Below, in pieces: positions 4,889 through 55,981 of a stretch of 64,000 nt of DNA (the stretch's first letter is position 1; each line of letters opens with the position of its first letter). The notes under the pieces were generated by a model that was not told where the DNA came from, did no database searches, and saw nothing but the letters and a program-made list of their open reading frames with translations. The DNA is from Patescibacteria group bacterium (GTDB lineage: Bacteria > Patescibacteriota > Microgenomatia > Levybacterales > GWA1-39-11): NCBI GenBank assembly GCA_035549315.1, contig DASZRC010000012.1, forward strand, positions 5,082-69,081, in the 5' to 3' direction. The position numbers and the translations under genes are program-made.

Positions 4889-4895
4889 ACATAAT

Positions 4896-7800: not shown

Positions 7801-10800
7801 TCGGTGGAACAATTGTTTGGGAATATTGTAGTGGAGTAGACGGCAGCAATAATTGTAATGCGTGGAGTACATTATCATTTACGGCCTCAAGTACTCCAAG
7901 CTTTACGGCAACAACTAACGGATATGGTGCGTTCACTCCACCAGGTGGTTGGGTAGCAGGAAAAGTTAATACAGATTCAAGCACTTATTATTATATTCGG
8001 GCTCGTGTAAGCGTTGCTTATACCACCGCACCAATTGGTACGCAAATGACTTCAATACCTCAGATTAATTGGCCAAGTGCAATTACCAATGTAGTCTCAA
8101 ATTCTGTCTATATGACTTGGAATGAGAATGCTACAAGCCCTGAGAAAGTAAAATATGGTGCGGCAACAGTAAGTGCATTAACTCCCGGTACAGATAGTAA
8201 TATTAATCCGGTTAGTGCTTACTCATCACTTACCACTGCGAGCCAATTATCAACCCAGCACCATCTTGTCAGAACGACTGATGGGACTCTCCACCAATTT
8301 ATACAAGCAGGAACCCTTTATGCTTGTGGAGCAGGTTCTGGAACAGCCCCGGGTCTTGTTTGGCTTACTTCAACGGATAGTGGAGCTACTTGGAATTGTC
8401 AGGGACAGCTAAATTCTGCTGCAACTTATTTTGCAGACGCAAGAGTAGATTCTTCAGACAATATATATGTAGTTTATTCAACGGCTGCCAATGGAGCAGG
8501 GGCAGCAAATGATGTCTTCTATAGAAAGCTTACGTATGGTGGATCATCTTGGACATTAGGATCAGAGCAAACCGTTTTTGACGGAACAGGGTCAGTTGGG
8601 TATTCATATGCAGCGCTAGAAATTGATTCAAGTAGAGTATGGGTTGCAGCTCGTTACTTTGATGGAGTTAATTATCAAGTTTCAGTTGATTATTCAAATG
8701 ACCAGTCCGCCTCTCCAACATGGACAACTTCAATAACAAATCTTGAAACGGTAGGATCTACAACTACAAAACATATTCCCACAATGGTTCGTTTTGGAAC
8801 AAACATTGGAGTTATCTGGGTTGATCAAACAAGTACGGGTCTTTATTGGAGATTCCATGGGGATTCGGATCCTCTAACTTCCTGGACAGGCCAGGCTCCT
8901 GCCTTTTCAACAACGGCACTAACTACTGCAACATTCACTGCGGTATCAGATTCCCAGGGCCACATCTATCTTGCTGCAGTGCCTGGAACAAACGCCGTCT
9001 ATCTTACATACTTCAACGGTGAGACGTGGACAACTCCATTTATAGTTTCATCAACAGTTACCGCTGGAACATTTGTTGCCTTATCAACAGATGGTAACAG
9101 TGTTTGGGTATTTTATGGAGATACAACAAACCTTTCAGGAAGCCTTCCCGGGCTTAGAAGACTTGCTTATAAAAAATGTAGTCCGCCATTTTTTACAGCG
9201 ACTGACTGTGATTCAACAGCAACAAATGTAAATACATACCAAGATATATTTGATAAAGTTTGGAAGTTTACTTCCATAGGTTCTGTCTATGCAGATGAAA
9301 CAACAGCTGCCGGTAATACAACAACAGCAGACGTTTCTATAGGAGGTGCTCTTAACGACATAATGTATTGGGGTAAAACAACTCCATTTGATACATTGGG
9401 TTATGTTTTATCAACTAACGGAACAACCGGAGTAGTGCGTTGGGAATATTGGAATGGTACTGCTTGGGTTCCAATTCCTACATTTATTTCAACATCGGCT
9501 CAAAACTATACGGCAACAGGATACATAAACTTTGTACCAATGTCTGATTGGGCAACCACCCAGATTAATGGTGAGTCAACGCCTTACTACTATATTCGCT
9601 CAAGGGTTGTTACGGCTTACGTTGCTGTACCAATTGGAACTCAAATGGATGCAATTCCCCAGATTAACTGGGCCAATTCACTTACAAATGTAGTTTCAAA
9701 TACTACACCTATAATTTGGACGGAAAACTCTGTTTCTCCAATGAGGCTTAGATATAAAACGGTAACTACCACGTCATCAACTCGCTCTGCCGCATCAGAA
9801 ATTAGTCCAAGTGTTGTAGGTTACTCGGCACTTACCACAGCAACCCAAGATTCTTCACAGCATCATCTTGTCAGGACAACTGATGGAACGCTCCATGCAT
9901 TTGTCCAATCTTCAACAACTCAGTTGGGATGTGGTGGGCAAGCCGGAAATAATTCTGCCTCTCTTAATTGGATAGAATCAACGGATAATGGAGCAACTTG
10001 GAGTTGTCAGGGGCAGCTAAATTCAGCTGCAACTTATTTTGCCGATGCAAGAGTAGACTCTTCAGATAATATATATGTAACTTACTCGGTGGCAGGAAAT
10101 GGAGCAGGGGCAGCAAATGATGTATATTATAGAAAGATTACCTACAACGGTTCGTCCACCTGGACGTTAGGTGCAGAAAGATTAGTGCTAGATGGAACCG
10201 CAGGTGTTGGATATGCTTATGCTGCACTGGAACTTGATCCATCCCATGTATGGATATCTGCCCGTTATTTTGACGGAACAAATTATCAAGTAACCGTCTA
10301 TTATTCTTCAAATCTGTCTGACAATCCTTCCTGGACTCAATCTATTACGCATCTTGATACGGTTGGAACAACAGCCACTCGTCATACTCCTGCTATGGTT
10401 CGCTTTGGAACAAACATTGGAGTAGTTTGGAATGACCAGACAAATACCGGATTAAGGTGGCGCTTTAGAAATGATTCAGATGATTTGTCCGCTTGGGTTA
10501 CAGAAACCAATGTTTTCAGTACAGCAGCTTTAGGAATTGGTTTGTTTGCAGTAACCTCAGATTCAGCAGGTAGAGTATATGTTGCTGCAGATCCTAATAC
10601 AACAGCTTATCTTACTTACTTTAATGGGGTGGCTTGGACAGCTCCACTTGTTGTGACAACAACCTCATCATCTGCATTATTTATTTCTCTCTCAACAGAC
10701 GGTAATAACGTTTGGGTGTTTTATGGAGATACAACAAATCTTAGCGGAACTTTATCCGGTAATAGACGTCTTGCTTATAAAAAATGTGCGCCTCCATTCT

Positions 10801-30916: not shown

Positions 30917-32323
30917 TTAATTTGCAAAGTCTTGTGTTGCCATGAGTCCGTAGTGGGGGTCTGATACTACACCAATTCCAATTCTGTTGTAGGCTCCATT
31001 CAAAATATTGGCGCGGTGACCTGCAGAATTCATCCATGCATTAACAATAATGTCAGCTGTTGGTCCGGCTCCTATGTTTTCTGCAGCGGCAGTAAATGTT
31101 ACTCCTCCAATTTTCATTCTTTGGAAGGGATCAAGTCCATCCGGATTAATATGTTCAAAGAAATTACGGGTTACCATATCTTGGCTGTGGGCGCGTGCAA
31201 CATTAGAAATGGTTGGATCAAGAGTTAGTGCGCCAAGCCCATTTTGAGCTCTTTGGGCATTTGTAAGCCTTAATATATCAAGTTCTGCTTGGTTGGTATC
31301 GCTTTGTGGCTGCTGAGTTACTGGTTGTTGTCCGCCACTTGGCTGATTGGGAGTGCTTGTTGGTTGTACAAATGGAGGAGTAGTAGGCTGTACTTGTTGG
31401 TATTGGAAAGGTGGTTGTGTGGGCGCAGCAATAGTTGGTTGGACTTGTTGTCCACCAGATGGCTGAGGTGTGGGGGTAGCAGTAGGTGGAAAAATAAAAA
31501 ATCCTTTTGCTGGTCCGGCGGCTGGCGGAGGAGTAGGCTCTATATTTTGTCCCTGACTATTATATGGAGGAGTAGGCGTAGGTAGAAAATGCAAGCTAAA
31601 ACTATATTTGGGCGCTTGAGTGGGGGTAGCGCCTGTTGGCTGATTATTTGTTGGTGGTACAAAAGCCTGCTGTCCGCCATTATTATCCTTCTGAGCATCT
31701 ACATTTTGCTTAAAATTGTCTACAGCTTTTTGGCTTGGTTGGCTTTTGTTATTTTCTGAATCAGAGTATGTGTCATAGGTAAAAGGATCTTTTATATGAT
31801 ATGCAACTCCATTAAATATTCCGGTATCTTTTAGACCAAGCGGAGCATAATAAATTTTGTAAGACAGTGGTTTTACTATTTTGGAATCCCCTATATATGT
31901 TTGTAATTTAGGGTGAGTTGTACTTGCCGAAACTAAAAATGTAAATACAAAAAAGCATATGAAAAATGAAGCTACAAGGGATGGAAAAATATTTAGGATC
32001 CAATCAATATGATGAAAGAAAACAAACCTATCTATCCCCGTAGATTTACCGGTTACTGTAAAAAATATTTTTTTAAAATTGAAAAAACGCCACAAGATAA
32101 TAAATAAAACTCCTTGGATAATTAATGCTTCCTGTAGGTTTGTTATTGGTAATTTGAATGGATTAGCTGAGGAGACAATTACACCCACTGCAATACAGAT
32201 AATTGTTATTACCAAAAATTTGGTGAAAGAGTAGAAAGAATAAAACCAACCTAACTTATATATAGTTAGGGCAACGAGTAAAAAAGCAGAAACTCCAACA
32301 GCATCAACTAAAGGGATGTACAT
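30917..32323 (-). CDS. polytopic membrane protein with Pro/Gln-rich linker and C-terminal CAP/SCP/PR-1 (YkwD-like) domain
   Basis: C-terminal 'LNAQRAQNGLGALTLDP...ARAHSQDMVTRNFFEH...AENIGAG...NAWMNSAGHRANILNGAYNRIGIGVV' fits the CAP superfamily. Confidence 0.65.
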   Translation of the reverse strand: MYIPLVDAVGVSAFLLVALTIYKLGWFYSFYSFTKFLVITIICIAVGVIVSSANPFKLPITNLQEALIIQGVLFIILWRFFNFKKIFFTVTGKSTGIDRFVFFHHIDWILNIFPSLVASFFICFFVFTFLVSASTTHPKLQTYIGDSKIVKPLSYKIYYAPLGLKDTGIFNGVAYHIKDPFTYDTYSDSENNKSQPSQKAVDNFKQNVDAQKDNNGGQQAFVPPTNNQPTGATPTQAPKYSFSLHFLPTPTPPYNSQGQNIEPTPPPAAGPAKGFFIFPPTATPTPQPSGGQQVQPTIAAPTQPPFQYQQVQPTTPPFVQPTSTPNQPSGGQQPVTQQPQSDTNQAELDILRLTNAQRAQNGLGALTLDPTISNVARAHSQDMVTRNFFEHINPDGLDPFQRMKIGGVTFTAAAENIGAGPTADIIVNAWMNSAGHRANILNGAYNRIGIGVVSDPHYGLMATQDFAN

Positions 32324-40901: not shown

Positions 40902-41531
40902 TCAATTCCGCTCAGATTTTTTGGACATTTTTATTTCTAATTTGATAAATCTTTTACCTAGGAAAAACAAAAAGATAAGAATTATAATTCCTGCAATAAT
41001 TTGTGGAATTGGGGCAAATGCAGACCATAATGACAGGGCTTTGTAGTAAATTCCTTCAATTAATGATCCCGGCACTACTGTGAAATAAAGCTTAGTAGCC
41101 GCTGCAATATTAACAGAGGTTTGACCATTTCCAATCTTTTTAACAGGTTGTGCCTCTAGATATGCAAAATATTCTCCGGGAACAGTTTTTACCGGGAGAT
41201 TAAGGGTTATCCGTACAGTTTGAACCCTCTTTGGTTCTAGATGAAACGTTTTTGGTGAAAATATAAACCAACTCTCCTCAGGTATAAGTTGTGGCTGCTT
41301 TTCTTGGTGCTCTATTAAAACTCTATAATCGGAGGGTTGATCTCCTGTGTTTAAAACAGTTATAGCCGGAAGATTATAAATTTGCCCCTGCTTTAATTGT
41401 TGATCAACTTGAATTTTTCCAACTCCAACACCAACTCCTAAATCTGCAAACACTTTAGAAGTGGAGAAGACCATTAAGACGAGGAGGAGAAAGATTATCT
41501 TTTTGGTCATTAGTTTAGTTTTTTTATCCAA
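40902..41531 (-). CDS. secreted protein with C-terminal TM anchor; first gene of a surface-protein cluster
   Basis: Signal peptide, beta-rich ectodomain, C-terminal TM 'IIAGIIILIFLFFLG' and basic tail; architecture recalls anchor components of Gram-positive cell-surface complexes (inference). Confidence 0.5.
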   Translation of the reverse strand: MDKKTKLMTKKIIFLLLVLMVFSTSKVFADLGVGVGVGKIQVDQQLKQGQIYNLPAITVLNTGDQPSDYRVLIEHQEKQPQLIPEESWFIFSPKTFHLEPKRVQTVRITLNLPVKTVPGEYFAYLEAQPVKKIGNGQTSVNIAAATKLYFTVVPGSLIEGIYYKALSLWSAFAPIPQIIAGIIILIFLFFLGKRFIKLEIKMSKKSERN

Positions 41532-41543
41532 TATATTTAAAAT

Positions 41544-42056
41544 TTAATGTATGACAGCTTGGACAGTGACATCAACTGATTGTTGGGTGTAAACAGATGA
41601 TGTTTGAGGGGTTGTAATATAAAGATCAAAGGTTTGGGTACCATTTGCCGCCACATTTCCAGACCCCAGAGCTTGGTAATTTGTTGTTAAGGCAGTATAG
41701 TTAGTTGGTGCACTGGCACAGGACGCAGTGCAGAATCTGTGAATGTAGTGATCGGTTGTGGAGTTTGTTGTATCTAGTGTCCAGTTGGCGCTATTTGTTC
41801 CCCTTATATTTAGATCTTCAGCAACATTTCCATTATTTGTTGCTGTTTGGGTATCGCTCCCATTAGTACCTGCAGAAGAGTTAGCCCCAAGAGTTCCATA
41901 AGATACGGTTCCATCACTAATACTTACTGAAATATTCTGAACAGTGACTGTAGCAGTAACCGTAGCCGTTGAGGTAGCATAAACAAAATTTCCTCGCCCA
42001 CCAAACATAACTAAAATAATTAACAAAATTAATAAAAACAGATAACGGACAGGCAT
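41544..42056 (-). CDS. small secreted protein made almost entirely of a ~130-aa domain shared with the C-terminus of the 1,355-aa neighbour
   Basis: Shared blocks: 'VSISDGTVSYGTLGANSSAGTNGSDTQTATNNGNVAEDLNIRG' vs 'VSVADGTVSYGVMS...LNDTQTATNNGNVAEDFNISG'; 'ANWTLDT' vs 'CPWTLSS'; '(T/S)YQALGSGN(V/L)AANGTQ(T/A)FDL'; 'QQSVDVT(V/I)QAV(I/A)H'. Confidence 0.55.
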   Translation of the reverse strand: MPVRYLFLLILLIILVMFGGRGNFVYATSTATVTATVTVQNISVSISDGTVSYGTLGANSSAGTNGSDTQTATNNGNVAEDLNIRGTNSANWTLDTTNSTTDHYIHRFCTASCASAPTNYTALTTNYQALGSGNVAANGTQTFDLYITTPQTSSVYTQQSVDVTVQAVIH

Positions 42057-42124
42057 AAAATGTAAGAGTTTAGTAAGAACTCTGTAAATAGGTTATTCTA
42101 AAAAGTATGCGCTTGTCAATAGTC

Positions 42125-45100
42125 TTAGTGAGCAACGGCCTGTATTGTTACGTCAACAGATTGTTGACTACTGCAGGCGGTTGAAGTAGGAGTTGTTAGC
42201 TTTAGGTCAAAAGCCTGTGTTCCATTTGCCGCCAAATTTCCGGACCCCAGAGCTTGATAGCTTGTTGTAAGAGGGGTCCAGTTGCTGCCACTGTTGGTAG
42301 AAAATGAATGTACATATTGATCTGTTCCGCTTGATGAGCTTAGTGTCCATGGGCAAGAGGTATTTTGCCCGGATATATTAAAATCTTCTGCCACATTTCC
42401 GTTATTAGTAGCTGTTTGAGTATCATTAAGACCTGAGGCTGTTGTATCTTTGTTTTGATTTATTGACATCACTCCATAAGATACGGTTCCATCGGCAACA
42501 GAAACCGATATAACAGTACTTAATCCTCCCCAGGCAACATACCAATATGTGGTTGATGAGGCATTCGTTTCGGAAGCTGTTCCAACACTAAATCCATCAA
42601 GATCAAGGCTTGTTATTGCATTTGTTATACTAGCAACGTTAATAAAGGGGAGTGCAAAATTTCCTACGCCATCGCTTGTTCTTTGAATACCTCTTGTTGC
42701 AGTTCCAGCTGATCTTTTTACCCATAGATAGTCTGGCTGAAGTCCAACACTTGAAACACCATGTGAGGATCCTGTTCCGGAATATGACCCGACTTTAAAG
42801 TTTGTCCCAGTTTTAAACCCAAAGTACCAATAAATATTAGCTGCCGTGTTTACATTTGCAGTAGTTCCAATCTGAAATCCGTCAGAATTTAAAGTTTGAA
42901 TGTTGTTAGCAGTGTCATTAGTTGCTGCAAAGAAAGCAGATGTGTCTCCAGCTTGAGATGAGCTTCTAAAGGTTCCACCCGTGGCACCGCTTCTTTTTAC
43001 CGTTACCATATCGGCCTGAAGTGGTAGGCGGCCAATATTTGTATTGTCTATTCCATTTCCATAGTAGGCGCCAATATAAAAATCAGAAGCGCCCGTGGCA
43101 GTCATAGGGTTCCATGCATTTCCGTAAGCCACCCAATAATATGTCACACCGGTGCTGTTTGCTGTTGTGCTGGTTCCTACAGTAAAACCATTAGGATTAA
43201 TTGCCGTTATTGCTCCTGCAAGATTTGCTGTTGCGCTATCTAAATATGCCGTGGAATCTCCACCCATCATGCTGGTTCTAAAAACACCGGCTTGTGCTGT
43301 ATCTCCCTTTATTATAATTAGGTCAGGCTGAAATCCTAAATTAGTTATTCTTTGATACGCACCATTTCCCGTATATGTTCCTTTTGCCATTTCAAAAGAG
43401 CCACTTGATGAATGATCAGAAGCGCCACCAAAAGCAGCATAATAAATTGTATTACCACTTCCATTGGACATAGAATTTGTACCTACACTAAATCCATCTG
43501 AATCAAGTGAAGTTATGACTCCTGTTGAATTAGCAGTTTTGGTGAAAAGACTTGAGTTGTTTCCATACGACTCGGGTGTATTATAAACAGCAGAAACTGG
43601 AGTAACTGCATCTGCATTTTTAACAAAGACCCAGTCGGGAGAGAATCCTACTCCGGTTATTCCATGGGCAGATCCTGTTCCTGAATAGGAGCCAACCTTA
43701 ACGGCATTTGCAGTATTTTTGAATGCCACAAAATAATAAATTCCTCCACTTGCATTATTTGTTGTGCCAACTGTAAACCCGGTTGAATCAAGAGTTGTGA
43801 AGAGTGCTCCTGTTGTATCTTGAGCCGTGGCATCAAAGTATTGGCCAACATTCGTTCCCATGGAAGAAGTTCTAAATGTTCCTGTGACAGCTGTTGAGCG
43901 TTTGATCCAAGTAAGGTCTGGCTGAAAACCTACATTCGAAATAGATTTTGTTGCATTGCCATCACCCTGATATTCTCCAATGCAAAACATGCCGGATGCT
44001 GAGCAATCTGATCCGGCAAAAGCAATCCAAGTGACTCTAACATTTGCAGTACTTTGAGTTCCGGAGACTGTAAATCCGTCATCTTCCAAATTGACCCACC
44101 CAGTTGTATTATCAGCAGTCGAAATAAAATAAGACGTATTAGGGCCGGGCATTAGAGTTGTTGAAAACATTGCGCCAAGAGTGTTCGAATCAGATTTTAG
44201 AATAACAAGTTGAGGTCTAAAGCCAAGCCCTGTTATTTGAACAGGATTTGTGTTTCCTATATAGTATCCCGTCTGCATTTTAAAGGTTGGTGTTGTAGGA
44301 GAAAAATTATCTTTCCATGCAACATACCAATATGTGTTTGAATTTGTATTTGCTTCAGCCGCTGAACCTACGGAAAATCCGTTAGATAGAATACTCGTAA
44401 CTGCATTGTTTACATTTGCTGCATTTAAAAAAGGTAAAGAACTATTTGCAGCACCATCACTTGTCCTTAGGATAGATTGTGTTGTACCGGATCGTTTTAT
44501 CCATATATTGTCCGGTTGAAAACCTACGGATGTTATATTTTGAGAGCTTCCGTTCCCACCATATTGACCTACTTTAAATTCGGAGCCATTTTTAAACCCA
44601 AAGTACCAATATACATTTGCCGCCGTATTCACATTCGCAGTAGTTCCCACCTGGAATCCGTCAGATGTAAGCGATTGTACGTTATTTGCAGTATCAGCTG
44701 TGGCTGTAAACAGGGCAGAGGTGTCACCTGCTTGAGCAGAGGTTCTAAATACGCCAGCTGTTGCACCGCTTCTTTTTACTGTTACCATATCTGCTTGAAA
44801 CGGTAAGCGGGTAATGTTTCTATTATCCGCTCCATTTCCATAGTAGGCGCCAATATAAAAATCGGAGGCCCCACTATTTGCCGCCGGATTCCATGCGTTT
44901 CCATAAGCCACCCAATAATATGTCGCCCCGGCACTATTAACCGTTGCGTTTGTTCCCACGGTAAAACCTTTTGGATTTATGGCGATGATCCCTCCGGAGA
45001 AATTTGCAACAGCGTTTCCAAAATATGCAGTGGAATCCCCACCCATCATGCTGGTTCTAAAGACCCCATATTGCGCTGTGTCTCCTTTAATAATTATTAG

Positions 45101-46192
45101 GTCAGGTGAAAATCCTAGGTTTGAAACAATAATATTACTGCCAGTGCCCGTGTAAGTGCCGCTTTCCATTTTGAATGTTCCGCTCCCCGGTGATAGTGAA
45201 CTTGCCCCTGCAAAAGCAGCATAATAAATTGTATTACCGCTTCCATTGGACATAGAATTTGTTCCCACACTAAATCCATCTGAATCAAGTGAAGTTATGA
45301 CCCCTGTTGAATTAGCGGTTGCTGTAAATAAGCTGGAATTATCCCCGTAAGATTCATTTGTGTTATAAACAGCAGAAACGGGAGTAACTGCATCTGCATT
45401 TTTAACAAAGACCCAGTCGGGAGAAAATCCTACTCCTGTTATTCCATGGGCAGATCCCGTTCCTGAATAACTACCAACCTTCATTGCTCCGGATGAGTTT
45501 TTGAATGCCACATAATAATAAATTCCACCACTTGCATTATTTGTTGTGCCAACTGTAAACCCGGTTGAATCAAGAGTTGTGAAGAGAGCGCCTGTTGTAT
45601 CTTGAGCGGTCGCCGCAAAGTATTGGCCAACATTCGTTCCCATAGAAGAAGACCTCCAGTTGCCGGCGACTGCAGTTGTTTGTTTTACCCATACAAGATC
45701 CGGTTGAAAGCCAACCGAGGTAATAGACTGTGTAGAATTTCCATTTCCGGAATATGCTCCAATACAAAAAGTTCCTGATGAACTACAATCCGCGCCCGTG
45801 AATGCAATCCATGTGTACCTAATATTGGCAGTGCTCATAGTGCTTGATACTGTGAAGCCGTCGACTTCTAAATTAACCTGTCCTGTTGTGTTGTCAGCGG
45901 TAGCAATGAAAAAAGCCGTATTAGGGCCGGGCATTAATGTGGTGGAAAATACAGCTCCGGAGGTATTTGTATCAGACTTAATTATTACCAGTTGTGGTTT
46001 AAATCCAAGACCAGTTATATGAACTGGATTTGTGTTCCCCACGTAGTATCCTGTCTGCATAGAAAAAGTTGAAGCGTTTGCCACTTTGGTTTTCAATGGA
46101 AATGCGGGATTTTGTAGCAGTGGTGGCCAGCCTGTAAATAGCCAGAATAACAACAGTAAAACAGTAAAGCTTTTTTTGACTGTACGTTTCAT
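42125..46192 (-). CDS. giant secreted repeat protein (1,355 aa): 12 ~90-aa sub-repeats in two ~590-aa super-repeats plus C-terminal shared surface domain
   Basis: Signal peptide; sub-repeat consensus G.Y.G.G.....I...GF.PD...(I/V)K.......(F/W)R(T/S)S.M.......F....(G/N)..(L/I)...GF.VG........YY(W/Y)(V/F)A(F/Y); C-terminal domain homologous to the 41544 ORF. Confidence 0.7.
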   Translation of the reverse strand: MKRTVKKSFTVLLLLFWLFTGWPPLLQNPAFPLKTKVANASTFSMQTGYYVGNTNPVHITGLGFKPQLVIIKSDTNTSGAVFSTTLMPGPNTAFFIATADNTTGQVNLEVDGFTVSSTMSTANIRYTWIAFTGADCSSSGTFCIGAYSGNGNSTQSITSVGFQPDLVWVKQTTAVAGNWRSSSMGTNVGQYFAATAQDTTGALFTTLDSTGFTVGTTNNASGGIYYYVAFKNSSGAMKVGSYSGTGSAHGITGVGFSPDWVFVKNADAVTPVSAVYNTNESYGDNSSLFTATANSTGVITSLDSDGFSVGTNSMSNGSGNTIYYAAFAGASSLSPGSGTFKMESGTYTGTGSNIIVSNLGFSPDLIIIKGDTAQYGVFRTSMMGGDSTAYFGNAVANFSGGIIAINPKGFTVGTNATVNSAGATYYWVAYGNAWNPAANSGASDFYIGAYYGNGADNRNITRLPFQADMVTVKRSGATAGVFRTSAQAGDTSALFTATADTANNVQSLTSDGFQVGTTANVNTAANVYWYFGFKNGSEFKVGQYGGNGSSQNITSVGFQPDNIWIKRSGTTQSILRTSDGAANSSLPFLNAANVNNAVTSILSNGFSVGSAAEANTNSNTYWYVAWKDNFSPTTPTFKMQTGYYIGNTNPVQITGLGFRPQLVILKSDSNTLGAMFSTTLMPGPNTSYFISTADNTTGWVNLEDDGFTVSGTQSTANVRVTWIAFAGSDCSASGMFCIGEYQGDGNATKSISNVGFQPDLTWIKRSTAVTGTFRTSSMGTNVGQYFDATAQDTTGALFTTLDSTGFTVGTTNNASGGIYYFVAFKNTANAVKVGSYSGTGSAHGITGVGFSPDWVFVKNADAVTPVSAVYNTPESYGNNSSLFTKTANSTGVITSLDSDGFSVGTNSMSNGSGNTIYYAAFGGASDHSSSGSFEMAKGTYTGNGAYQRITNLGFQPDLIIIKGDTAQAGVFRTSMMGGDSTAYLDSATANLAGAITAINPNGFTVGTSTTANSTGVTYYWVAYGNAWNPMTATGASDFYIGAYYGNGIDNTNIGRLPLQADMVTVKRSGATGGTFRSSSQAGDTSAFFAATNDTANNIQTLNSDGFQIGTTANVNTAANIYWYFGFKTGTNFKVGSYSGTGSSHGVSSVGLQPDYLWVKRSAGTATRGIQRTSDGVGNFALPFINVASITNAITSLDLDGFSVGTASETNASSTTYWYVAWGGLSTVISVSVADGTVSYGVMSINQNKDTTASGLNDTQTATNNGNVAEDFNISGQNTSCPWTLSSSSGTDQYVHSFSTNSGSNWTPLTTSYQALGSGNLAANGTQAFDLKLTTPTSTACSSQQSVDVTIQAVAH
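42560..46120 (-). repeat. recent ~1.78 kb tandem duplication inside the giant gene
   Basis: Near-identical stretches offset by ~1775-1785 nt (CCATGGGCAGATCC[T/C]GTTCCTGAATA at ~43660 and ~45445; TTTTAAACCCAAAGTACCAATA at ~42815 and ~44590). Confidence 0.75.
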
Positions 46193-46193
46193 A

Positions 46194-47087
46194 TTATTTT
46201 ATTACACGCTGTCCAAGTCTTAAAAATTCAAGGATATTAATAAGCGCAGGATTATTCACTGCAATAATATTTCCATTTTCCGCAGAGACATGAATAGATA
46301 TTGGAAGTTTTAAAGTTAATAATCCAAGAATTTGAAAATTTTGCAATCCACTAACTACATATACGGGTTTATTGTCAACTGCTTTAAGAATAGAAGTTAT
46401 GCTTGATGGAATAATAAATGAGCCTTGGGTTTTAATAGCATCTATTACCTTAACGGGTGCAATAACTTCATATGTTTTTCCGTCAATGACTACATTAATC
46501 TTTTCGCGCGTTGTATCAAGTTGCACGGGCAAGGATGTTTCTGTTTGTGTATCTCCTTGAGTTATCACTAAATTTCCACTGGAAGTAGCAGGTGTAATAG
46601 TTAATGTGCCATTATTTATTGACTCCATAATTATTTCATCTACAGATTGAGTTGTTGAATCAGTTGGGCTAGTTATCGTGGCTATTAGCGTGTTTTCTGG
46701 TATAGAAGTTGGAGTGGGAGTTGAAGTTGACTCCGGAGAGTTTGTAGGAGTTGGAGTGGAGTTTGGTGCAGAAGTAGGTGTGGGGGAAGGAGTAGAGGTA
46801 GGGGTAAGGGTTGGAGAGGGAATTGGCGTATCAGTGGGAATAAAAGAAGAAACACTTACGGTTATGATAATTCCAGATGATGCACCCAGGACATTGCTTT
46901 TGTAAAGTTTTTTATCTAAAAAAAGATATTTATCAATACTGCCGTTATCAGATAAAAATAATACTCTGCCATCAGATTTTATAACAAGAGATTTAGCATA
47001 TATAGAGTAGGGGTTAATAAAAAGAAAAAGAATAACAAAACAAAAAAGGGTTGAAATTTTAAGCCACATGTAGCTAAATTGTATCAA
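46194..47087 (-). CDS. secreted protein with long PT/ST-rich linker (cluster member)
   Basis: Hydrophobic N-terminus; 'PTDTPIPSPTLTPTSTPSPTPTSAPNSTPTPTNSPESTSTPTPTSIP'; stop 1 nt before the giant gene's start codon. Confidence 0.55.
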   Translation of the reverse strand: MIQFSYMWLKISTLFCFVILFLFINPYSIYAKSLVIKSDGRVLFLSDNGSIDKYLFLDKKLYKSNVLGASSGIIITVSVSSFIPTDTPIPSPTLTPTSTPSPTPTSAPNSTPTPTNSPESTSTPTPTSIPENTLIATITSPTDSTTQSVDEIIMESINNGTLTITPATSSGNLVITQGDTQTETSLPVQLDTTREKINVVIDGKTYEVIAPVKVIDAIKTQGSFIIPSSITSILKAVDNKPVYVVSGLQNFQILGLLTLKLPISIHVSAENGNIIAVNNPALINILEFLRLGQRVIK

Positions 47088-49466: not shown

Positions 49467-50075
49467 TTATTGTTTTGGTTGAGGAGATTTTCTAAAGAAA
49501 GCAACGGTATCACCATATTGTAAAGGAACCAGAGCCCATGGGTGGTTAAATACGTGACCCATGTCGAATTTTGAGGTGACTCTTCCATCTCCCTCATATA
49601 TTCCAAAATGTTGATAATAGCCCCTTTTTATATCAGGATTAGTTCTATCCAGGCGCCCATATGCTATTATGTCTCCGGGTTGAGGCAGATCAATTAATGA
49701 ATAACCATGAGAGAGAAGGAACTGATGGCTATCTGCCCAAAACTCTCTACCTTCACCCTGATTATCCTCAAGTGCCCATGTTTCGCCCCGTCTTGTGTGA
49801 AAAACATACTCCGCACATCTATAATTGTAGTCGTTCTCAACGCTTCTCGATTCCACAATCTGAATAGTCGCAATATTACCAATACGGTCGAAATACGCAT
49901 TAGATCTTTCCATGGCTCCTTCTCGCCATCCGGTATACCATTCTTCATATGCTCTCCCTGTATATTCTTGAATTGTCATGCGAACAAACGAGGGGGTTAT
50001 GGGAACCCAAGACTGAAGAGCAATTTCCGGGGCTGTTTGTTCGGACTGTGATCCTTGGTCATCTTCTTTTGTCAT
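49467..50075 (-). CDS. NlpC/P60-family papain-like peptidase, no signal peptide
   Basis: Cys motif 'YRCAEYV'; 'PGDIIAYGRL...QHFGIYEGDGRVTSKFDMGHVF' matches the NlpC/P60 'GDLVFF...HVGIYxGxGxxIHA' His-containing blocks. Confidence 0.55.
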   Translation of the reverse strand: MTKEDDQGSQSEQTAPEIALQSWVPITPSFVRMTIQEYTGRAYEEWYTGWREGAMERSNAYFDRIGNIATIQIVESRSVENDYNYRCAEYVFHTRRGETWALEDNQGEGREFWADSHQFLLSHGYSLIDLPQPGDIIAYGRLDRTNPDIKRGYYQHFGIYEGDGRVTSKFDMGHVFNHPWALVPLQYGDTVAFFRKSPQPKQ

Positions 50076-52682: not shown

Positions 52683-54377
52683 TTATTGGCTAGAGACTAG
52701 AGGGGTGTAGAGAAGTTCAATATATTCTTTTAGCATTCTGGTTGTAGAAAATTCACTTAATATTAAGTTCCTAGCCCTCTTCATATTTTCTATCCACAGC
52801 GTAGGAACGTTATTGCTGTCACGGTTAAAGTAGAGGGGTATTATTTCAGCCTCTAGTGTACCAAGGATGCTTTCATTTACTTTGTCCGTATCAAGTGGCC
52901 AGCCTATTCCATAAAAATCCACTTCGTCCATCCAGCCGTCTTTGGTTGAAAGCGGAAGATCTCCGTTAAGAGCTGCTTTCATGCCACTTGTTCCACAAGC
53001 TTCAAAGCCAACTATTGGCGTGTTTAGCCATACATCGCAGCTACTTGCCATAAGTCTTGAAAGAGCCAGATTGTAGCCGGGTAAAAAAACAACGCTTCCT
53101 TTTAGCTCATTATCAATAATCTCACGTATCTTTTTAAAGAATTCTACTGCCTCCATATCGCTTGGATGTTGTGTCCCGGATATTAATATTTTGACAGGTT
53201 TATTGGAGTTAGAAACAATCGCTTTGAGCCTTTCTATATTTTCAAAAAGAGCCAGGGGTCTTTTGTATTCCACAAGTCTTCTTGCCCAACCAACGAGAAG
53301 CATATTCTCATCCCAATTTTCTTCCGTGAGAATATTAACTTCTTTTAAGAGTTCTCTTTTGTTTTCAAGATGAATTGCCCATATATCGTTTTCGCTAGAA
53401 ACTTTGTTCCAATATTTTATGTTTATACCATTTGTAATTGGAGTCATGGGATTATTCGGCCATAACTCAAGGGATTTTTTAGCGTGAATTTTACTTACTG
53501 CATTTACTTTTCCAGCCATACGTAATGCAAAAAGGCTAGAAGAGAATGAGCTGGAATCCTGGGCACTTCCAAGATTCATAATTTCAGTCATTGGTATTCC
53601 AAGCTCGGCTGTATATTTTACAAAATTTATATTCATTAGTTCTCCCGGATAAATATCATGGCCTGCTGTAACAAGAGTGTGGTTTGTAAAAACTATTTTT
53701 TGTTTTGCTGCATTCTTTGCATCTTCAAAGTTAACCTTTTTGTCCTGCATGATGCGTTTAATTAGTTCAAGGCACAAGAAAGAAGAGAAGCCCTCATTCA
53801 TGTGATAAATAGATGGGGTAATACCAAGTGCTTCAAGAAGTCTAACTCCGCCAACCCCCAAGACCAATGCTTGCTTGAGCCTTGTTTCCCTGTCAATTAC
53901 ATAGAGATGGTTAGTAATTTTCCTATCTGCTTCTGAGTTTGATTCCGTGTTTGTATCAAGTAGATAAACAGGAACACTCCCCACATTCCATTTCCACGCC
54001 TTTACTTTAATAGACCTATCTTGAATCGGAACATCAATAAGTACCAATTCGCCTTTTTCATTTTTTACTTCTACTAATCCATAATCTTCCGGAGGTACAT
54101 GCACATGTGGAGTTTGTATTGCGCCTTTTTCATCAACCTGGTGGAGGGTTTGGTAGCCATCATAATAATACATGCCAAGTGCTACAACCGGGAAATTTTG
54201 TTCTTGGGCTTCACGCAGATAGTCTCCTGCTAAAACCCCAAGACCACCTGCATATATTGGGAGTCCGGAAGTTAGAGCGTATTCAGCACAAAAGAAAGCT
54301 ATTGGGTTTTTCTCAAAAGTAGAATAATTTGAGCTTTGTCTAAAAGATTTAAACCACTCCAAGTTTTTATCCATCAA
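52683..54377 (-). CDS. glgP: alpha-glucan (glycogen) phosphorylase, GT35 family (short form)
   Basis: 'YAGGLGVLAGDYLREA' (GT35 N-terminal motif) and PLP-site 'EACGTSGMKAALNG'. Confidence 0.85.
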   Translation of the reverse strand: MMDKNLEWFKSFRQSSNYSTFEKNPIAFFCAEYALTSGLPIYAGGLGVLAGDYLREAQEQNFPVVALGMYYYDGYQTLHQVDEKGAIQTPHVHVPPEDYGLVEVKNEKGELVLIDVPIQDRSIKVKAWKWNVGSVPVYLLDTNTESNSEADRKITNHLYVIDRETRLKQALVLGVGGVRLLEALGITPSIYHMNEGFSSFLCLELIKRIMQDKKVNFEDAKNAAKQKIVFTNHTLVTAGHDIYPGELMNINFVKYTAELGIPMTEIMNLGSAQDSSSFSSSLFALRMAGKVNAVSKIHAKKSLELWPNNPMTPITNGINIKYWNKVSSENDIWAIHLENKRELLKEVNILTEENWDENMLLVGWARRLVEYKRPLALFENIERLKAIVSNSNKPVKILISGTQHPSDMEAVEFFKKIREIIDNELKGSVVFLPGYNLALSRLMASSCDVWLNTPIVGFEACGTSGMKAALNGDLPLSTKDGWMDEVDFYGIGWPLDTDKVNESILGTLEAEIIPLYFNRDSNNVPTLWIENMKRARNLILSEFSTTRMLKEYIELLYTPLVSSQ

Positions 54378-54418
54378 TCTATATTATTAGCACCTCTGGC
54401 TAAAAGCAACCAACCAAT

Positions 54419-55981
54419 CTACGTAGAATACGCAGGGTGTGGAGTTGCGCTTGTTGCCCTTTTTCTTTCTTCAATTACACCCTTATACCACACTTCATAT
54501 TCGCGAGCCGCATGTTCCCAAGAAAAATCAGAAGATAATGCGTTAGAAACAAGCCTGGTCCAAAGTTTTGGTTGTCCATAAATTGTTAGCGCGGTTATTA
54601 TTGCTCCATACAGAGACCAAGAGCTTTTATTTTTAAAAGAAAATCCATTTCCTTCCCCTGTATTTGGGTTAAATTCGGTGACAATATCATTTAAGCCGCC
54701 GGTTCTCCTAACAATTGGAATGGCTCCATAGCGCATAGCCTCAAGAGCTACAATTCCGCCCGGTTCAAAAATACTTGGGATCAAAACCATATCGGCTCCG
54801 GCATTTATTCTTCTTGGCAATCTAAAATCAGTCTGGAGGTGAAGAGAGAGTTGTTCGCTAAAATCTCTTTGGATAATAGAGAGCTCATTTTGGAATCTTT
54901 CATCTCCTTGTCCCATGACTAGAACTTGTACGTCCGGTCTTTCCAATAAGAGCTTTGGAAGCATCTTAAGGATTAGGTCCCAACCTTTTTGAGCAGAGAT
55001 CCTGCCGCAAACCGCAATAAGTGGCCTTTTTGGGTTTTGGGACAGAGTAAATTCCTTTTGAAGAAGTAATTTATTTTTCTGCCTTGCCGTTACGAAATTT
55101 TTAAGGTTGTAATTGTTTTTTATTATTGGGTCTGTCATTGGATTAAACTCTTTTGTATCTAATCCATTTAATATTCCGGTAATTTTGCCTCTAACCTTGT
55201 TTAGAGTTTTTTCTAAGCCTTCTGCATATTCTGGTGTTAGTACTTCAATTGCATGGGACGGGCTAACTGTATTTACCTCATCTGCATTAATTATTCCCCG
55301 CAATAGTGCATTTTGTTTTAGAAGTTTAGTAGAGTTAAGCGCTGCAAGGGGAGCTACTCCGGTATCCCGGTCTTTTGGAGCCAAATATCTAAAGTTAATA
55401 TTACCCTGAAAATAAAAATTGTGCACCGTAAAGGTAATTGGCGTTTTGTTAAGCAAAGATTTATAGCGTTTGTCATTCCTTGCTAGGTCTACAAAATAGC
55501 CCGTATGCCAATCATTTGTATGTATTACATCCGGCCACCAATCATCATCGTTGTCCTCTTTTAATTTTAATAGCCACTCAAGACAACCTTTGGAAAGTAG
55601 GGCAAAGCGTACATGGTCATCTTTGTAGCCAAAAACGTGTGCCCTGAGGGTAAAGTATTCTTTGTTTTCCAAAAAATATGCTTTGGGTGCTTTGGCCTTG
55701 CTATAAGAGCTTACCGAGCAATTTATAAAAAGAGGCTTACCCTTAATTGGCTCATTTTGAATAGTGTTATATACGGGAACTTTTATATTTTTTATTTCCG
55801 GTTTTAGTTTCCACTCTTTTTTCCCCGGTCCGGTTGTATCCATGGTTCCATGGCGTGCTGTAAATATGCGAACATCATGTCCTTTTTGTTGTAGGGCACG
55901 GGGTAGAAAATAAAGCACTTGAGACAATCCACCAACGGATGCGTATGGTCCAACTTCAGCTCCCAGGAATAGAATCTTCAT
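54419..55981 (-). CDS. glgA: glycogen synthase (GlgA-like GT5/GT4 glycosyltransferase)
   Basis: N-terminal 'MKILFLGAEVGPYASVGGLSQVLYFLPRAL' KxGGL signature; C-terminal GT-B Rossmann 'IPSIFEPGGIVALEAMRYG'. Confidence 0.85.
   Translation of the reverse strand: MKILFLGAEVGPYASVGGLSQVLYFLPRALQQKGHDVRIFTARHGTMDTTGPGKKEWKLKPEIKNIKVPVYNTIQNEPIKGKPLFINCSVSSYSKAKAPKAYFLENKEYFTLRAHVFGYKDDHVRFALLSKGCLEWLLKLKEDNDDDWWPDVIHTNDWHTGYFVDLARNDKRYKSLLNKTPITFTVHNFYFQGNINFRYLAPKDRDTGVAPLAALNSTKLLKQNALLRGIINADEVNTVSPSHAIEVLTPEYAEGLEKTLNKVRGKITGILNGLDTKEFNPMTDPIIKNNYNLKNFVTARQKNKLLLQKEFTLSQNPKRPLIAVCGRISAQKGWDLILKMLPKLLLERPDVQVLVMGQGDERFQNELSIIQRDFSEQLSLHLQTDFRLPRRINAGADMVLIPSIFEPGGIVALEAMRYGAIPIVRRTGGLNDIVTEFNPNTGEGNGFSFKNKSSWSLYGAIITALTIYGQPKLWTRLVSNALSSDFSWEHAAREYEVWYKGVIEERKRATSATPHPAYST

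What the first reader, a model, noticed from the sequence alone, without database searches (positions are those of the whole stretch)
40902..47087. Four-gene cell-surface cluster with a shared C-terminal domain and a very recent 1.78 kb intragenic duplication
On the minus strand: a PT-linker secreted protein (297 aa); a 1,355-aa protein of 12 ~90-aa sub-repeats; a 170-aa secreted protein; and a 209-aa protein with signal peptide plus C-terminal TM anchor. The 170-aa protein is homologous to the last ~130 aa of the giant protein (shared blocks DGTVSYG, TQTATNNGNVAED, (N/P)WTL, YQALGSGN.AANGTQ.FDL, QQSVDVT.QAV.H). This layout of small and large proteins sharing a W-x-L-containing C-terminal domain plus a membrane-anchored partner resembles WxL/Csc-type Gram-positive cell-surface complexes. 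The resemblance is motif-level only. Inside the giant gene two ~1.78 kb segments are nearly identical at the nucleotide level, indicating recent duplication and possible phase-variable length.
Basis: partly seen in the sequence, partly recalled or inferred. Interest (0 to 1): 0.65.

Follow-up and report, generated by a model that had tools for sequence, protein, structure and literature searches.

The report
Usher-less chaperone/donor-strand pilus cluster, CPR bacterium
This four-gene cluster of an uncultured ultra-small (CPR/Patescibacteria) bacterium most likely builds a thin adhesive surface fibre: a membrane-tethered PapD-like chaperone, a small pilin and a giant tip adhesin; it is not a WxL complex, and its internal duplication is old.

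Summary
The four minus-strand ORFs, the shared C-terminal domain (60% identity, E 2e-42) and a tandem 1.78 kb intragenic duplication are real. The duplication is not recent: 74.7% nt identity, dS about 1.1.

No WxL, DUF916 or DUF3324 signal appears in the window proteins or in 190 family members. There is one W-x-L motif, not two.

The 209-aa protein is a single PapD-like beta-sandwich on a C-terminal TM helix. Foldseek gives 150 PDB hits, the best being chaperone-usher chaperones. hhalign maps K39 to PapD R8 and K147 to PapD K112. The 170-aa protein's best, though weak, fold matches are donor-strand pilins. It carries a conserved 15-residue N-terminal extension (ATSTATVTATVTVQN), which the giant protein and all other large family members lack.

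The domain lies within 0-4 residues of the C-terminus in 126 of 133 ORFs. Large-small-chaperone synteny recurs across Patescibacteria (137 species genomes).

Best reading: an usher-less donor-strand pilus, with a phage-tail-fibre-like tip adhesin, a major pilin and a tethered chaperone. It works like the Pam pili reported in a 2026 preprint, but with simpler single-domain parts.

The mechanism is inferred and was not modelled. I rate it a new variant of a known kind.

The parts
46194..47087 (-). 297-aa (NCBI-annotated 291 aa) secreted accessory protein. It has a signal peptide, a conserved strand VLGASSGIIITVSVSSF (46842-46892), a P/T linker (46695-46841) and a 164-aa C-terminal domain (46197-46688) ending in a basic amphipathic tail. 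It is a candidate base or anchor subunit, but that role is speculative.
   Evidence: ORF. Only 4 family members are found in 5.8 billion proteins. Two of them, in L001 and L083, sit in the same first position of the same 4-gene order. The strand and linker are the invariant part of the N-terminal half. There is no Pfam, NCBIfam or PHROG hit.
42125..46192 (-). 1,355-aa putative tip adhesin, made of a leader, 12 DUF7483 sub-repeats and a C-terminal pilin-like domain with no N-terminal extension.
   Evidence: NCBI accession HVZ66957.1.
46073..46192 (-). Leader of the giant protein (aa 1-40). It carries the family-wide motif ...F-T-G-W-P-P-L-L-Q-N-P-x-x-P..., followed by an A-N-A cleavage-like site.
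   Evidence: The motif W-x-F-S-G-W-P-x-I-W-Q-N-P-x-I-P-P-K-I-x-E-A recurs in large proteins of many loci. It is one of only two segments shared with the L083 large protein.
44315..46069 (-). Duplication copy 1 (aa 42-626), comprising six DUF7483 sub-repeats, i.e. two ~300-aa phage-tail-fibre-like units.
   Evidence: One 300-aa unit aligns over 90-95% of its length to virion structural proteins of 22 phages. PHROG tail-fibre family hit at 6e-77.
42530..44287 (-). Duplication copy 2 (aa 636-1221), 77% aa and 74.7% nt identical to copy 1.
42128..42511 (-). C-terminal pilin-like domain of the giant (aa 1228-1355). It starts at ISVSVADG, ends at the protein's C-terminus, and has a Cys pair at 1280/1340.
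   Evidence: 60% identity to the 170-aa protein. HMM E 4.8e-51. Coordinates and Cys positions.
41544..42056 (-). 170-aa putative major pilin. It has a signal peptide (41979-42056), an N-terminal extension ATSTATVTATVTVQN that is the candidate donor strand (41934-41978), and a pilin-like domain (41547-41933) with an invariant W92-x-L94 and C109/C113.
   Evidence: 829 homologues, all without a Pfam domain. The extension is almost invariant. AF2 pLDDT is 83.5, with the extension unstructured at about 57-61. The best Foldseek matches are donor-strand pilins.
40902..41531 (-). 209-aa (NCBI-annotated 202 aa) membrane-tethered PapD-like chaperone. It has a signal peptide, a single beta-sandwich (41070-41423) whose last strand is TSVNIAAATKLYFTVVP, an amphipathic helix, a TM helix (40947-41009) and a short basic tail.
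   Evidence: Pfam PapD_N at E 2e-4, 21.8 bits against a cut-off of 23. AF2 pLDDT 87.5. Foldseek gives 150 PDB hits at E<=1e-3, the top ones FaeE, Caf1M, DraB, FimC and PapD. hhalign against PapD+FimC gives E 0.0053, with K39 aligned to R8 and K147 to K112. K147 is invariant and K39 is conserved in at least 90% of 64 homologues.

Best explanation
The cluster most likely encodes an usher-less, chaperone-assisted donor-strand pilus of a monoderm CPR bacterium.

Shown:
- All four proteins carry Sec-type leaders.
- The 209-aa protein is a single PapD-like Ig sandwich held on the outer face of the membrane by a C-terminal TM helix.
- The 170-aa protein and the C-terminus of the 1,355-aa protein share a ~130-aa domain that almost always ends at the protein's C-terminus.
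- Only the small protein carries the conserved 15-residue extension of alternating hydrophobic residues.
- The giant's head consists of phage-tail-fibre-like DUF7483 units.
- The large-small-chaperone order is conserved across Patescibacteria.

Inferred:
- After export, the tethered chaperone caps each subunit's incomplete Ig fold with its last strand (VNIAAATKLYF). It holds the subunit's C-terminal carboxylate with K39 and K147, as PapD R8 and K112 do.
- The giant protein has a groove but no donor strand, so it starts the fibre and ends up at the distal tip as the adhesin.
- Copies of the 170-aa pilin then add at the base. The extension of each one displaces the chaperone strand from the previous subunit (donor-strand exchange).
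- With no outer membrane, no usher is needed. The fibre stays attached through the chaperone-bound last subunit, or through the 297-aa protein (conserved strand plus P/T linker).
- The likely function is contact with a host cell or a surface.
For: (1) Chaperone. Foldseek gives 150 PDB hits at E<=1e-3. The top hits are N-domains of chaperone-usher chaperones at E about 3e-6, prob 1.00 and 17-23% identity. Pfam PapD_N hits 29 of 64 family members weakly. hhalign against verified PapD+FimC N-domains spans the whole domain (117 columns, E 0.0053) and places K39 on R8 and K147 on K112. K147 is the only invariant charged residue of the family. JGI annotated several homologues as 'P pilus assembly chaperone PapD'.

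(2) Pilin. About half of the top 50 Foldseek hits are donor-strand subunits: CfaB, PapE-PapK 1n12, FimA/F/G, the PapG pilin domain, PapA, CsuA/B, Caf1 and archaeal cannulae. The extension is unstructured in the monomer model while the domain is confident.

(3) The extension is nearly invariant in the small proteins. It is absent from the 72 large representatives and the 54 large ORFs in the loci.

(4) The domain ends within 0-4 residues of the C-terminus in 126 of 133 ORFs.

(5) A small pilin sits directly upstream of the chaperone in 68-70 of 82 loci. A large protein lies directly upstream of the small one in 40 of 60 loci with room for it. The chaperone family occurs in 137 GTDB species genomes spanning many CPR lineages.

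(6) Heads are modular and are swapped between relatives, as expected for adhesins. The window's head is homologous to phage tail-fibre and virion proteins.

(7) There is experimental precedent. Pam pili of a cultured CPR bacterium are donor-strand filaments, with TM-anchored PapD/FimC-like chaperones proposed as their assembly factors (bioRxiv 10.64898/2026.03.03.709456).
Against: - No complex or filament was modelled or observed, so the groove, the strand insertion and the polymerisation are all inferred.
- The pilin fold matches are weak: best E 7e-3, none at or below 1e-3, TM 0.4-0.56.
- PapD_N is below Pfam's cut-off (21.8 vs 23 bits). hhalign against PapD alone gave only E 0.26, with the lysine offset by 2-3 residues.
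- The chaperone lacks the second domain that forms half of the subunit-binding cleft in PapD.
- A few related loci (L050, L052, L065) show a large protein and a chaperone but no small pilin.
- Most related clusters have a dockerin-bearing protein and a membrane cohesin that this window lacks. The anchoring step here is therefore the least certain.
- There are no expression data.
Confidence: 0.6

Rival explanations
1. A WxL-like, non-polymerising surface-display complex. The membrane-anchored Ig protein permanently holds single copies of the large adhesin, and of the small protein, at the cell surface by strand complementation. No fibre is formed, and the small protein acts as a spacer, cap or competitor.
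For: The gene logic matches WxL clusters: small plus large proteins sharing a C-terminal domain, plus a TM-anchored Ig protein predicted to insert a strand into that domain (PMC9772566, PMC10599100). Some related loci have a large protein and a chaperone without a small protein. The first-motif context RGTNSANWTL resembles the WxL consensus D-x-R-G-T-x-A-G-W-x-L described in PMC9772566.
Against: This reading does not explain the near-invariant N-terminal extension, which is restricted to the small protein. It also does not explain why the small protein is the most conserved component (mean column identity 54% vs 44% for the chaperone). The partner's fold and its R8/K112-like lysines are those of pilus-assembly chaperones. 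CPR donor-strand filaments have been seen experimentally.
Confidence: 0.2
2. A true member of the WxL/Csc family (WxL domain proteins plus DUF916/DUF3324 WxLIP).
For: Only the layout and one W-x-L motif support this.
Against: No PF13731, PF06030 or PF11797 hit appears in any of 190 family members or in the window proteins. There is a single W-x-L, not two. The partner has one domain and 209 aa. There is no LPxTG protein. The taxon is outside Firmicutes.
Confidence: 0.03
3. Unrelated secreted Ig-like or cell-envelope proteins that merely happen to be neighbours (for example S-layer or wall-associated proteins). The PapD-like fold would then be a generic beta-sandwich with no assembly role.
For: Ig-like sandwiches are common. 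Family members also hit fn3_5, NPCBM_assoc and FixG_C weakly. The pilin fold matches are weak.
Against: The same order, strand and tight spacing recur in about 70 of 82 loci from many CPR lineages. The top 50 structural neighbours of the 209-aa protein are almost all pilus chaperones or PapD-like/MSP domains. The functional lysines are conserved.
Confidence: 0.12
4. A prophage or phage-derived tail-fibre module.
For: The DUF7483 head hits PHROG tail-fibre and virion structural families, and 22 phage records.
Against: Only the head is phage-like. The other three proteins have no meaningful PHROG hit. The flanks are housekeeping genes: GNAT, inositol monophosphatase and an ABC transporter. The same cluster carries non-phage heads in relatives.
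Confidence: 0.02

Closest known systems
Pam pili of Candidatus Mycosynbacter amalyticus (CPR), bioRxiv 10.64898/2026.03.03.709456 (2026)
   Same: Both are CPR-restricted. [quoted passage not shown] Both have a PapD/FimC-like chaperone anchored by a C-terminal TM helix, no usher, a tip subunit lacking a donor strand, and paired cysteines in the pilins. A tail-fibre-like protein is also noted in Pam neighbourhoods.
   Different: Pam pilins are 39-55 kDa two-domain proteins whose donor strand is an internal linker. Here the repeating subunit is a ~14 kDa single domain with an N-terminal extension, as in classical Pap/Fim pilins. PamC and PamD have two beta-barrel domains; this chaperone has one. 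The proposed Pam anchor is PamR (RbmA-like, with a TM helix). Here the candidate is a P/T-linker protein, and in most relatives a dockerin protein plus a membrane cohesin, which the preprint does not mention. Sequence or structure homology to Pam proteins could not be tested.
Classical chaperone-usher pili (Pap, Fim, Caf1, Csu) of diderm bacteria
   Same: The chaperone N-domain fold is shared, and the R8/K112-equivalent basic residues are kept. The G1-like strand motif is similar: T-K-L-Y-F here against I-K-L-Y-Y in FimC and I-K-L-F-Y in PapD. The pilin has an N-terminal extension of alternating hydrophobic residues. The tip adhesin is a head plus a pilin domain with no extension (FimH/PapG logic). 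The pilin domain ends at the C-terminus.
   Different: There is no usher and no outer membrane. The chaperone is single-domain and membrane-tethered rather than a soluble two-domain periplasmic protein. Sequence similarity is sub-threshold. The adhesin head is built from phage-tail-fibre-like repeats.
WxL / Csc cell-surface clusters of Lactobacillales and Listeria (WxL plus WxLIP = DUF916-DUF3324-TM)
   Same: Both have small and large secreted proteins sharing a C-terminal domain, with variable adhesin-like heads on the large one. Both have a TM-anchored Ig-like partner predicted to complete the shared domain's sandwich with one of its strands.
   Different: No family HMM matches. There is one W-x-L motif instead of two. 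The partner has one Ig domain rather than two. There is no LPxTG component and the phylum differs. WxL proteins are thought to bind peptidoglycan rather than to polymerise.
Archaeal donor-strand fibres (Pyrodictium cannulae, Hyper2 tubes)
   Same: They appear among the structural neighbours of the 170-aa model. They are also donor-strand polymers built without an outer membrane.
   Different: They have no dedicated PapD-like chaperone and a different subunit architecture. The similarity is weak.

Membership tests
WxL/Csc cluster | C-terminal domain recognised by the WxL family model (PF13731) | tested here: not met
   No hit at E<=1 for the window proteins, at E<=10 for 55 small-protein homologues, or at E<=1e-3 for 71 large homologues.
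WxL/Csc cluster | Two conserved Trp-x-Leu motifs on adjacent strands (PMC9772566) | tested here: not met
   There is one W-x-L per domain (W92-T-L94 in the small protein, W1282-T-L in the giant), and no second invariant Trp.
WxL/Csc cluster | Small and large secreted proteins sharing the C-terminal domain | tested here: met
   60% identity over 133 aligned columns. The small/large dichotomy holds across 150 representatives.
WxL/Csc cluster | WxLIP partner: DUF916 (PF06030) + DUF3324 (PF11797) + TM helix, 337-365 aa (PMC10599100) | tested here: not met
   The partner has 209 aa, one beta-sandwich and a TM helix. Neither family is hit in the window protein or among the most-matched families of 64 homologues.
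WxL/Csc cluster | Firmicutes host, and usually an LPxTG protein in the cluster | tested here: not met
   The host is a Patescibacteria MAG. None of the four proteins has an LPxTG-like motif.
Chaperone-usher pili | PapD-like chaperone N-terminal domain | tested here: met
   At fold level: Foldseek E about 3e-6 and prob 1.00 to FaeE, Caf1M, DraB, FimC and PapD. At sequence level it is only sub-threshold: PapD_N 21.8 bits vs a cut-off of 23, and hhalign E 0.0053.
Chaperone-usher pili | Invariant basic pair (PapD R8 and K112) that anchors the subunit's C-terminal carboxylate | tested here: inconclusive
   hhalign against PapD+FimC aligns K39 with R8 and K147 with K112. K147 is invariant and K39 is conserved in at least 90% of homologues. 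However, the alignment against PapD alone was offset by 2-3 residues, and no structural superposition at residue level was available.
Chaperone-usher pili | Two-domain chaperone (PapD_N + PapD_C) | tested here: not met
   The AF2 model shows one sandwich (aa 37-152) followed by helices.
Chaperone-usher pili | Outer-membrane usher gene | tested here: not met
   No usher family appears in the cluster, its flanks or the other large ORFs scanned. CPR bacteria lack an outer membrane (established knowledge).
Chaperone-usher pili | Pilin: an incomplete Ig fold plus an N-terminal donor strand | tested here: inconclusive
   The best Foldseek matches are CU pilins, but at E 7e-3 to 0.1. A conserved alternating-hydrophobic extension is present. 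The groove itself could not be inspected.
Pam pili (CPR) | TM-anchored PapD/FimC-like chaperone in a CPR genome, with no usher | tested here: met
   The chaperone here has one domain rather than two.
Pam pili (CPR) | Two-domain pilins (9-strand N-terminal sandwich, linker donor strand, C-terminal truncated Ig domain) | tested here: not met
   The repeating subunit here is a single domain with an N-terminal extension. The giant has no extension-like linker.
Pam pili (CPR) | Sequence or structural homology to PamA/B/C/D/T (WP_2607632xx; PDB 25PZ, 25QA) | not testable with these tools
A profile search of PDB sequences found nothing, and no Pam entry was among the listed Foldseek hits.
DUF7483 (PF24299) | Match to the family model above the gathering score | tested here: met
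   276.7 bits against a cut-off of 27, with 12 stretches.

The most novel reading that the evidence does not exclude
This is a representative of a second, much more widespread CPR donor-strand pilus family that appears undescribed in the literature I could search. It has single-domain pilins with an N-terminal donor strand. It has modular tip adhesins, each made of a constant leader, a swappable head and a constant pilin domain. It has a one-domain, membrane-tethered PapD-like chaperone. In most lineages it also has a dockerin-bearing terminator docked to a membrane cohesin. It would be a minimal, usher-free form of the chaperone-usher principle. It could be the evolutionary bridge between the Pap/Fim pili of diderms, the Pam pili, and perhaps the WxL/WxLIP clusters of Firmicutes.
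Probability: 0.45. Interest if true: 0.8.

Novelty: new variant of a known kind. Interest (0 to 1): 0.62.

Why it matters
CPR/Patescibacteria make up a large share of bacterial diversity. Cultivated members live attached to other microbes, yet how most of them attach is unknown; only type IV pili and the newly reported Pam pili have been tied to host contact.

This cluster's pilin domain has 1,293 representative clusters at 50% identity, and its chaperone occurs in at least 137 species-level genomes across Microgenomates, Parcubacteria, WWE3, Dojkabacteria and Saccharibacteria-labelled bins. If it forms fibres, it would be one of the commonest adhesive organelles of this radiation.

The swappable, phage-tail-fibre-like heads would then be candidate determinants of host range. 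The system would also show that PapD-type chaperoning and donor-strand exchange can work with a single tethered Ig domain and no usher. That bears on the origin of chaperone-usher pili.

It is testable: Candidatus Microsyncoccus archaeolyticus PMX.50 carries a related cluster (locus L050).

Tried and rejected
- Profile searches of PDB sequences with the pilin and chaperone alignments gave only noise.
- hhalign of the chaperone family against PapD alone was insignificant (E 0.26). Adding a verified FimC sequence improved it.
- The promoter and terminator scan gave counts no better than shuffles and was not used.
- jackhmmer started from the 297-aa protein pulled in about 70 proteins encoded downstream of the chaperones. 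BLAST with composition correction matched only L001, and the database search found only 4 true relatives. I therefore attribute the jackhmmer result to drift through signal peptides and P/T linkers. I do not claim that the 297-aa protein is homologous to those 'X' proteins.
- A strict regular expression for the extension found it in only 33 of 68 small proteins, so it was too narrow. It found the motif in 0 of 54 and 0 of 72 large proteins. I rely on the HMM coordinates and the alignments instead.
- No paper mentions DUF7483. No paper links PapD or chaperone-usher systems to Patescibacteria except the Pam preprint.
- Recent duplication and phase variation: rejected on divergence and on the absence of length variants.

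Full report
**1. What is in the sequence**

Four co-directional ORFs lie on the minus strand, with gaps of only 1, 68 and 12 nt:
- 46194-47087, 297 aa
- 42125-46192, 1,355 aa
- 41544-42056, 170 aa
- 40902-41531, 209 aa

The flanks are unrelated. Upstream is a GNAT acetyltransferase. Downstream are a plus-strand ORF, an inositol monophosphatase and ABC-transporter genes.

Each protein begins with a hydrophobic signal-like segment, and the 209-aa protein also has a C-terminal TM segment. The giant contains 12 stretches of Pfam DUF7483 (E 3e-82). NCBI holds the same proteins as hypothetical proteins of a 'Patescibacteria group bacterium' MAG (HVZ66956.1 and HVZ66957.1). It annotates shorter starts for two of them, 291 and 202 aa.

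**2. The duplication is real but old**

Copy 1 covers aa 42-626 (window 44315-46069). Copy 2 covers aa 636-1221 (window 42530-44287). They align over 584 residues.

| Measure | Value |
|---|---|
| Amino-acid identity | 77% |
| Nucleotide identity | 74.7% |
| Third-codon-position identity | 55% |
| dS | about 1.1 |
| dN | 0.165 |
| Longest identical run | 59 nt |

They describe an ancient duplication kept under purifying selection, not a recent event. The only public copies (two contigs) have the same length. Each copy holds six sub-repeats, that is two ~300-aa units. One such unit aligns over 90-95% of its length to virion structural proteins of 22 phages and to a PHROG tail-fibre family.

**3. 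It is not a WxL cluster**

- The Pfam models for WxL, DUF916 and DUF3324 do not hit the window proteins at E<=1.
- They do not hit 55 small-protein homologues at E<=10, 64 homologues of the 209-aa protein at E<=1, or 71 large homologues at E<=1e-3.
- The WxL family is defined by two W-x-L motifs (PMC9772566). Here there is one.
- The WxL partner WxLIP has two Ig domains and 337-365 residues (PMC10599100). Here there is one domain and 209 residues.
- There is no LPxTG protein.

The resemblance in layout is real and is taken up in section 8.

**4. What the parts are**

*The 209-aa protein.* The AlphaFold2 model (pLDDT 87.5) shows one beta-sandwich (aa 37-152), an amphipathic helix and a TM helix. 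Foldseek against the PDB returns 150 matches at E<=1e-3. The top ones are the N-terminal domains of the pilus chaperones FaeE, Caf1M, DraB, FimC, PapD, SfaE and CupB2 (E about 3e-6, 17-23% identity), followed by other PapD-like/MSP domains. Pfam PapD_N is just below its cut-off (21.8 vs 23 bits).

I verified the PapD and FimC sequences against the PDB. A profile-profile alignment of the family against their N-domains covers the whole domain (117 columns, E 0.0053). It places K39 on PapD R8 and K147 on PapD K112. In chaperone-usher chaperones these two residues hold the subunit's C-terminal carboxylate (established knowledge). K147 is the only invariant charged residue among 64 homologues, and K39 is conserved in at least 90% of them.

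*The shared ~130-aa domain.* It has no Pfam family. The model of the 170-aa protein (pLDDT 83.5) is confident for the domain, but the segment between the signal peptide and the domain is unstructured. No PDB match reaches E 1e-3. Even so, about half of the top 50 matches are donor-strand subunits: CfaB, PapE with the PapK strand (1n12), FimA/F/G, the PapG pilin domain, PapA, CsuA/B, Caf1 and archaeal cannulae.

The unstructured segment, ATSTATVTATVTVQN, has alternating hydrophobic residues and is almost invariant in the small proteins.

**5. Family-wide regularities**

A profile search of 1.84 billion representative proteins finds 1,293 clusters. The 150 best fall into two classes.
- Small proteins of about 165-190 aa match from the signal peptide onward.
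- Large proteins of 230-1,581 aa carry the domain at the extreme C-terminus, and the match starts at the ISVSVSDG strand. They lack the extension.

Across 82 related loci the domain ends within 0-4 residues of the protein's C-terminus in 126 of 133 ORFs.

The large proteins carry varied heads: Gly_rich_2, fn3, DUF2341, DUF7483, cohesin and kelch. The closest relative of this window, L083, has the same four-gene order. Its 1,122-aa large protein shares only the leader and the C-terminal domain with the window's giant.

**6. Conserved gene order**

The chaperone family was found in 137 species-representative genomes. These include Davies-, Levy-, Shapiro-, Woese-, Pace-, Roizman-, Wildermuth-, Uhr-, Nomura- and Moranbacteria, WWE3, Dojkabacteria, Minisyncoccales, Ca. 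Microsyncoccus archaeolyticus and Saccharibacteria-labelled bins.

In 68-70 of 82 loci a small pilin gene lies directly upstream of the chaperone gene. In 40 of 60 loci with room, a large protein gene lies directly upstream of the small one.

**7. Most likely mechanism**

The steps below are inferred. They follow from combining the features above with what is known of chaperone-usher assembly.

1. The subunits are exported by Sec.
2. The tethered chaperone caps each subunit's incomplete fold with its last strand and grips its C-terminal carboxylate.
3. The giant has an acceptor domain but no donor strand. It starts the fibre and becomes the distal adhesin.
4. The 170-aa pilins add at the base by donor-strand exchange.
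5. With no outer membrane, no usher is required, and none is present.

A 2026 preprint gives experimental precedent. The Pam pili of a cultured CPR bacterium are donor-strand filaments. TM-anchored PapD/FimC-like proteins are proposed as their chaperones, and the authors use the same PapE-PapK and PapD-PapG structures as comparators.

**8. Relation to known systems**

Compared with Pam pili, this cluster is simpler.
- The pilin is a single domain with an N-terminal extension, not a two-domain pilin with an internal linker strand.
- The chaperone has one domain, not two.
- The anchoring differs.

Homology to the Pam proteins could not be tested.

Compared with Pap/Fim pili, the cluster lacks the usher and the chaperone's second domain, and the chaperone is tethered.

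Compared with WxL clusters, it shares the gene logic and the predicted strand complementation from a TM-anchored Ig protein, but no detectable sequence family. Whether all three share ancestry is an open and interesting question.

**9. The 297-aa protein**

It has only three relatives in the database. Two of them were located, and both sit in the same position of the same cluster. Its most conserved N-terminal feature is the strand VLGxSxGxxITVxxSxF, followed by a P/T linker.

In most other loci the position after the chaperone is occupied by a different secreted protein. That protein's mature N-terminus is N-A-T-V-K-I-S-V-C-G-N. It continues with a Cys-rich repeat, a linker and a dockerin-like end. 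The next gene encodes a membrane cohesin-like protein. The window has neither.

I suggest, without a test, that these strand-plus-linker proteins terminate and anchor the fibre. An apparent homology between the two kinds from jackhmmer was rejected as drift.

**10. Verdict**

- The WxL filing is not supported, although the analogy is instructive.
- The duplication claim is wrong in its dating.
- The best-supported reading is an usher-less chaperone/donor-strand pilus with a phage-tail-fibre-like tip adhesin (confidence 0.6).
- It is a new variant of a kind first reported for CPR bacteria only in a 2026 preprint, and it appears to be far more widespread.

Noticed in passing
window 46073-46144 (giant aa 17-40); also large proteins in L005, L006, L008, L012, L014, L032, L035, L047, L050, L056, L061: Large proteins of the family share a strikingly conserved leader just after the hydrophobic core: W-x-F-(S/T)-G-W-P-x-I-W-Q-N-P-x-I-P-P-K-I-x-E-A. 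Small pilins do not have it. It hits no Pfam or NCBIfam model. It could be a specialised signal peptide or propeptide, or a sorting signal.
   Followed up: partly
L003-L082, genes immediately downstream of the chaperone (e.g. L039:7550-8188 and L039:8196-9221): 63 of 82 loci encode, after the chaperone, a secreted protein with mature N-terminus N-A-T-V-K-I-S-V-C-G-N, a Cys-rich repeat, a PT- or Gly-rich linker and, in 57 of those 63, a dockerin-like C-terminus. 66 of 82 loci also encode a membrane-anchored cohesin-like protein. This may be a cohesin-dockerin anchor for the fibre. Both genes are absent from the window.
   Followed up: partly
L083:8858-12226 compared with window 42125-46192: The nearest relative keeps the four-gene order. 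Its large protein shares only the leader and the C-terminal pilin-like domain with the window's giant, and its head is unrelated (no DUF7483). DUF7483 heads reappear in the distant loci L003, L004 and L081. This looks like cassette-style head swapping.
   Followed up: partly
window 42530-46069: The DUF7483 units are homologous to phage tail-fibre and virion structural proteins: PHROG 24898 at 6e-77, and 22 phage records, mostly marine Pelagibacter, Synechococcus and Prochlorococcus phages, at 26-31% identity over about 93% of a 300-aa unit.
   Followed up: yes
window 4875-13106 (+) and 2426-4888 (+): A 2,743-aa ORF carries an N-terminal Peptidase_M23 domain and otherwise has no Pfam match above its cut-off (only a sub-threshold DUF2510 hit). 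It is preceded by an overlapping 820-aa ORF with no Pfam hit. This could be another giant envelope or host-interaction protein.
   Followed up: no
L003, L006, L016, L019, L027, L032, L064, L065 (record titles): Several species-representative MAGs that carry this CPR-type cluster are titled Gammaproteobacteria, Pseudomonadales, Bdellovibrionales, Chitinophagaceae or Bathyarchaeia. These are probably mislabelled or contaminated bins.
   Followed up: no
L050 (Candidatus Microsyncoccus archaeolyticus PMX.50), also L052 and L065: These loci have a large protein directly followed by the chaperone, with no small pilin detected in the locus. Either the pilin is encoded elsewhere or this is a fibre-less variant. 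The point bears on the non-polymerising rival model.
   Followed up: no
window 41544-42056 and 42128-42511: The small pilin has a C-x-x-x-C pair (C109, C113), invariant or nearly so in the family. Large-protein pilin domains instead have a Cys just before the Trp and another near the C-terminus (giant C1280 and C1340). The two classes seem to have different disulfide solutions.
   Followed up: no
window 40902-41531 and 46194-47087: The longest ORFs start at TTG. NCBI annotates later ATG starts, giving 202 aa and 291 aa.
   Followed up: yes
window 30917-32323 (-), 52683-55981 (-), 49467-50075 (-): Other annotatable genes are a 468-aa protein with a C-terminal CAP domain, a glycogen-phosphorylase-like gene next to a starch-synthase gene, and a weak CHAP-domain protein.
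   Followed up: no
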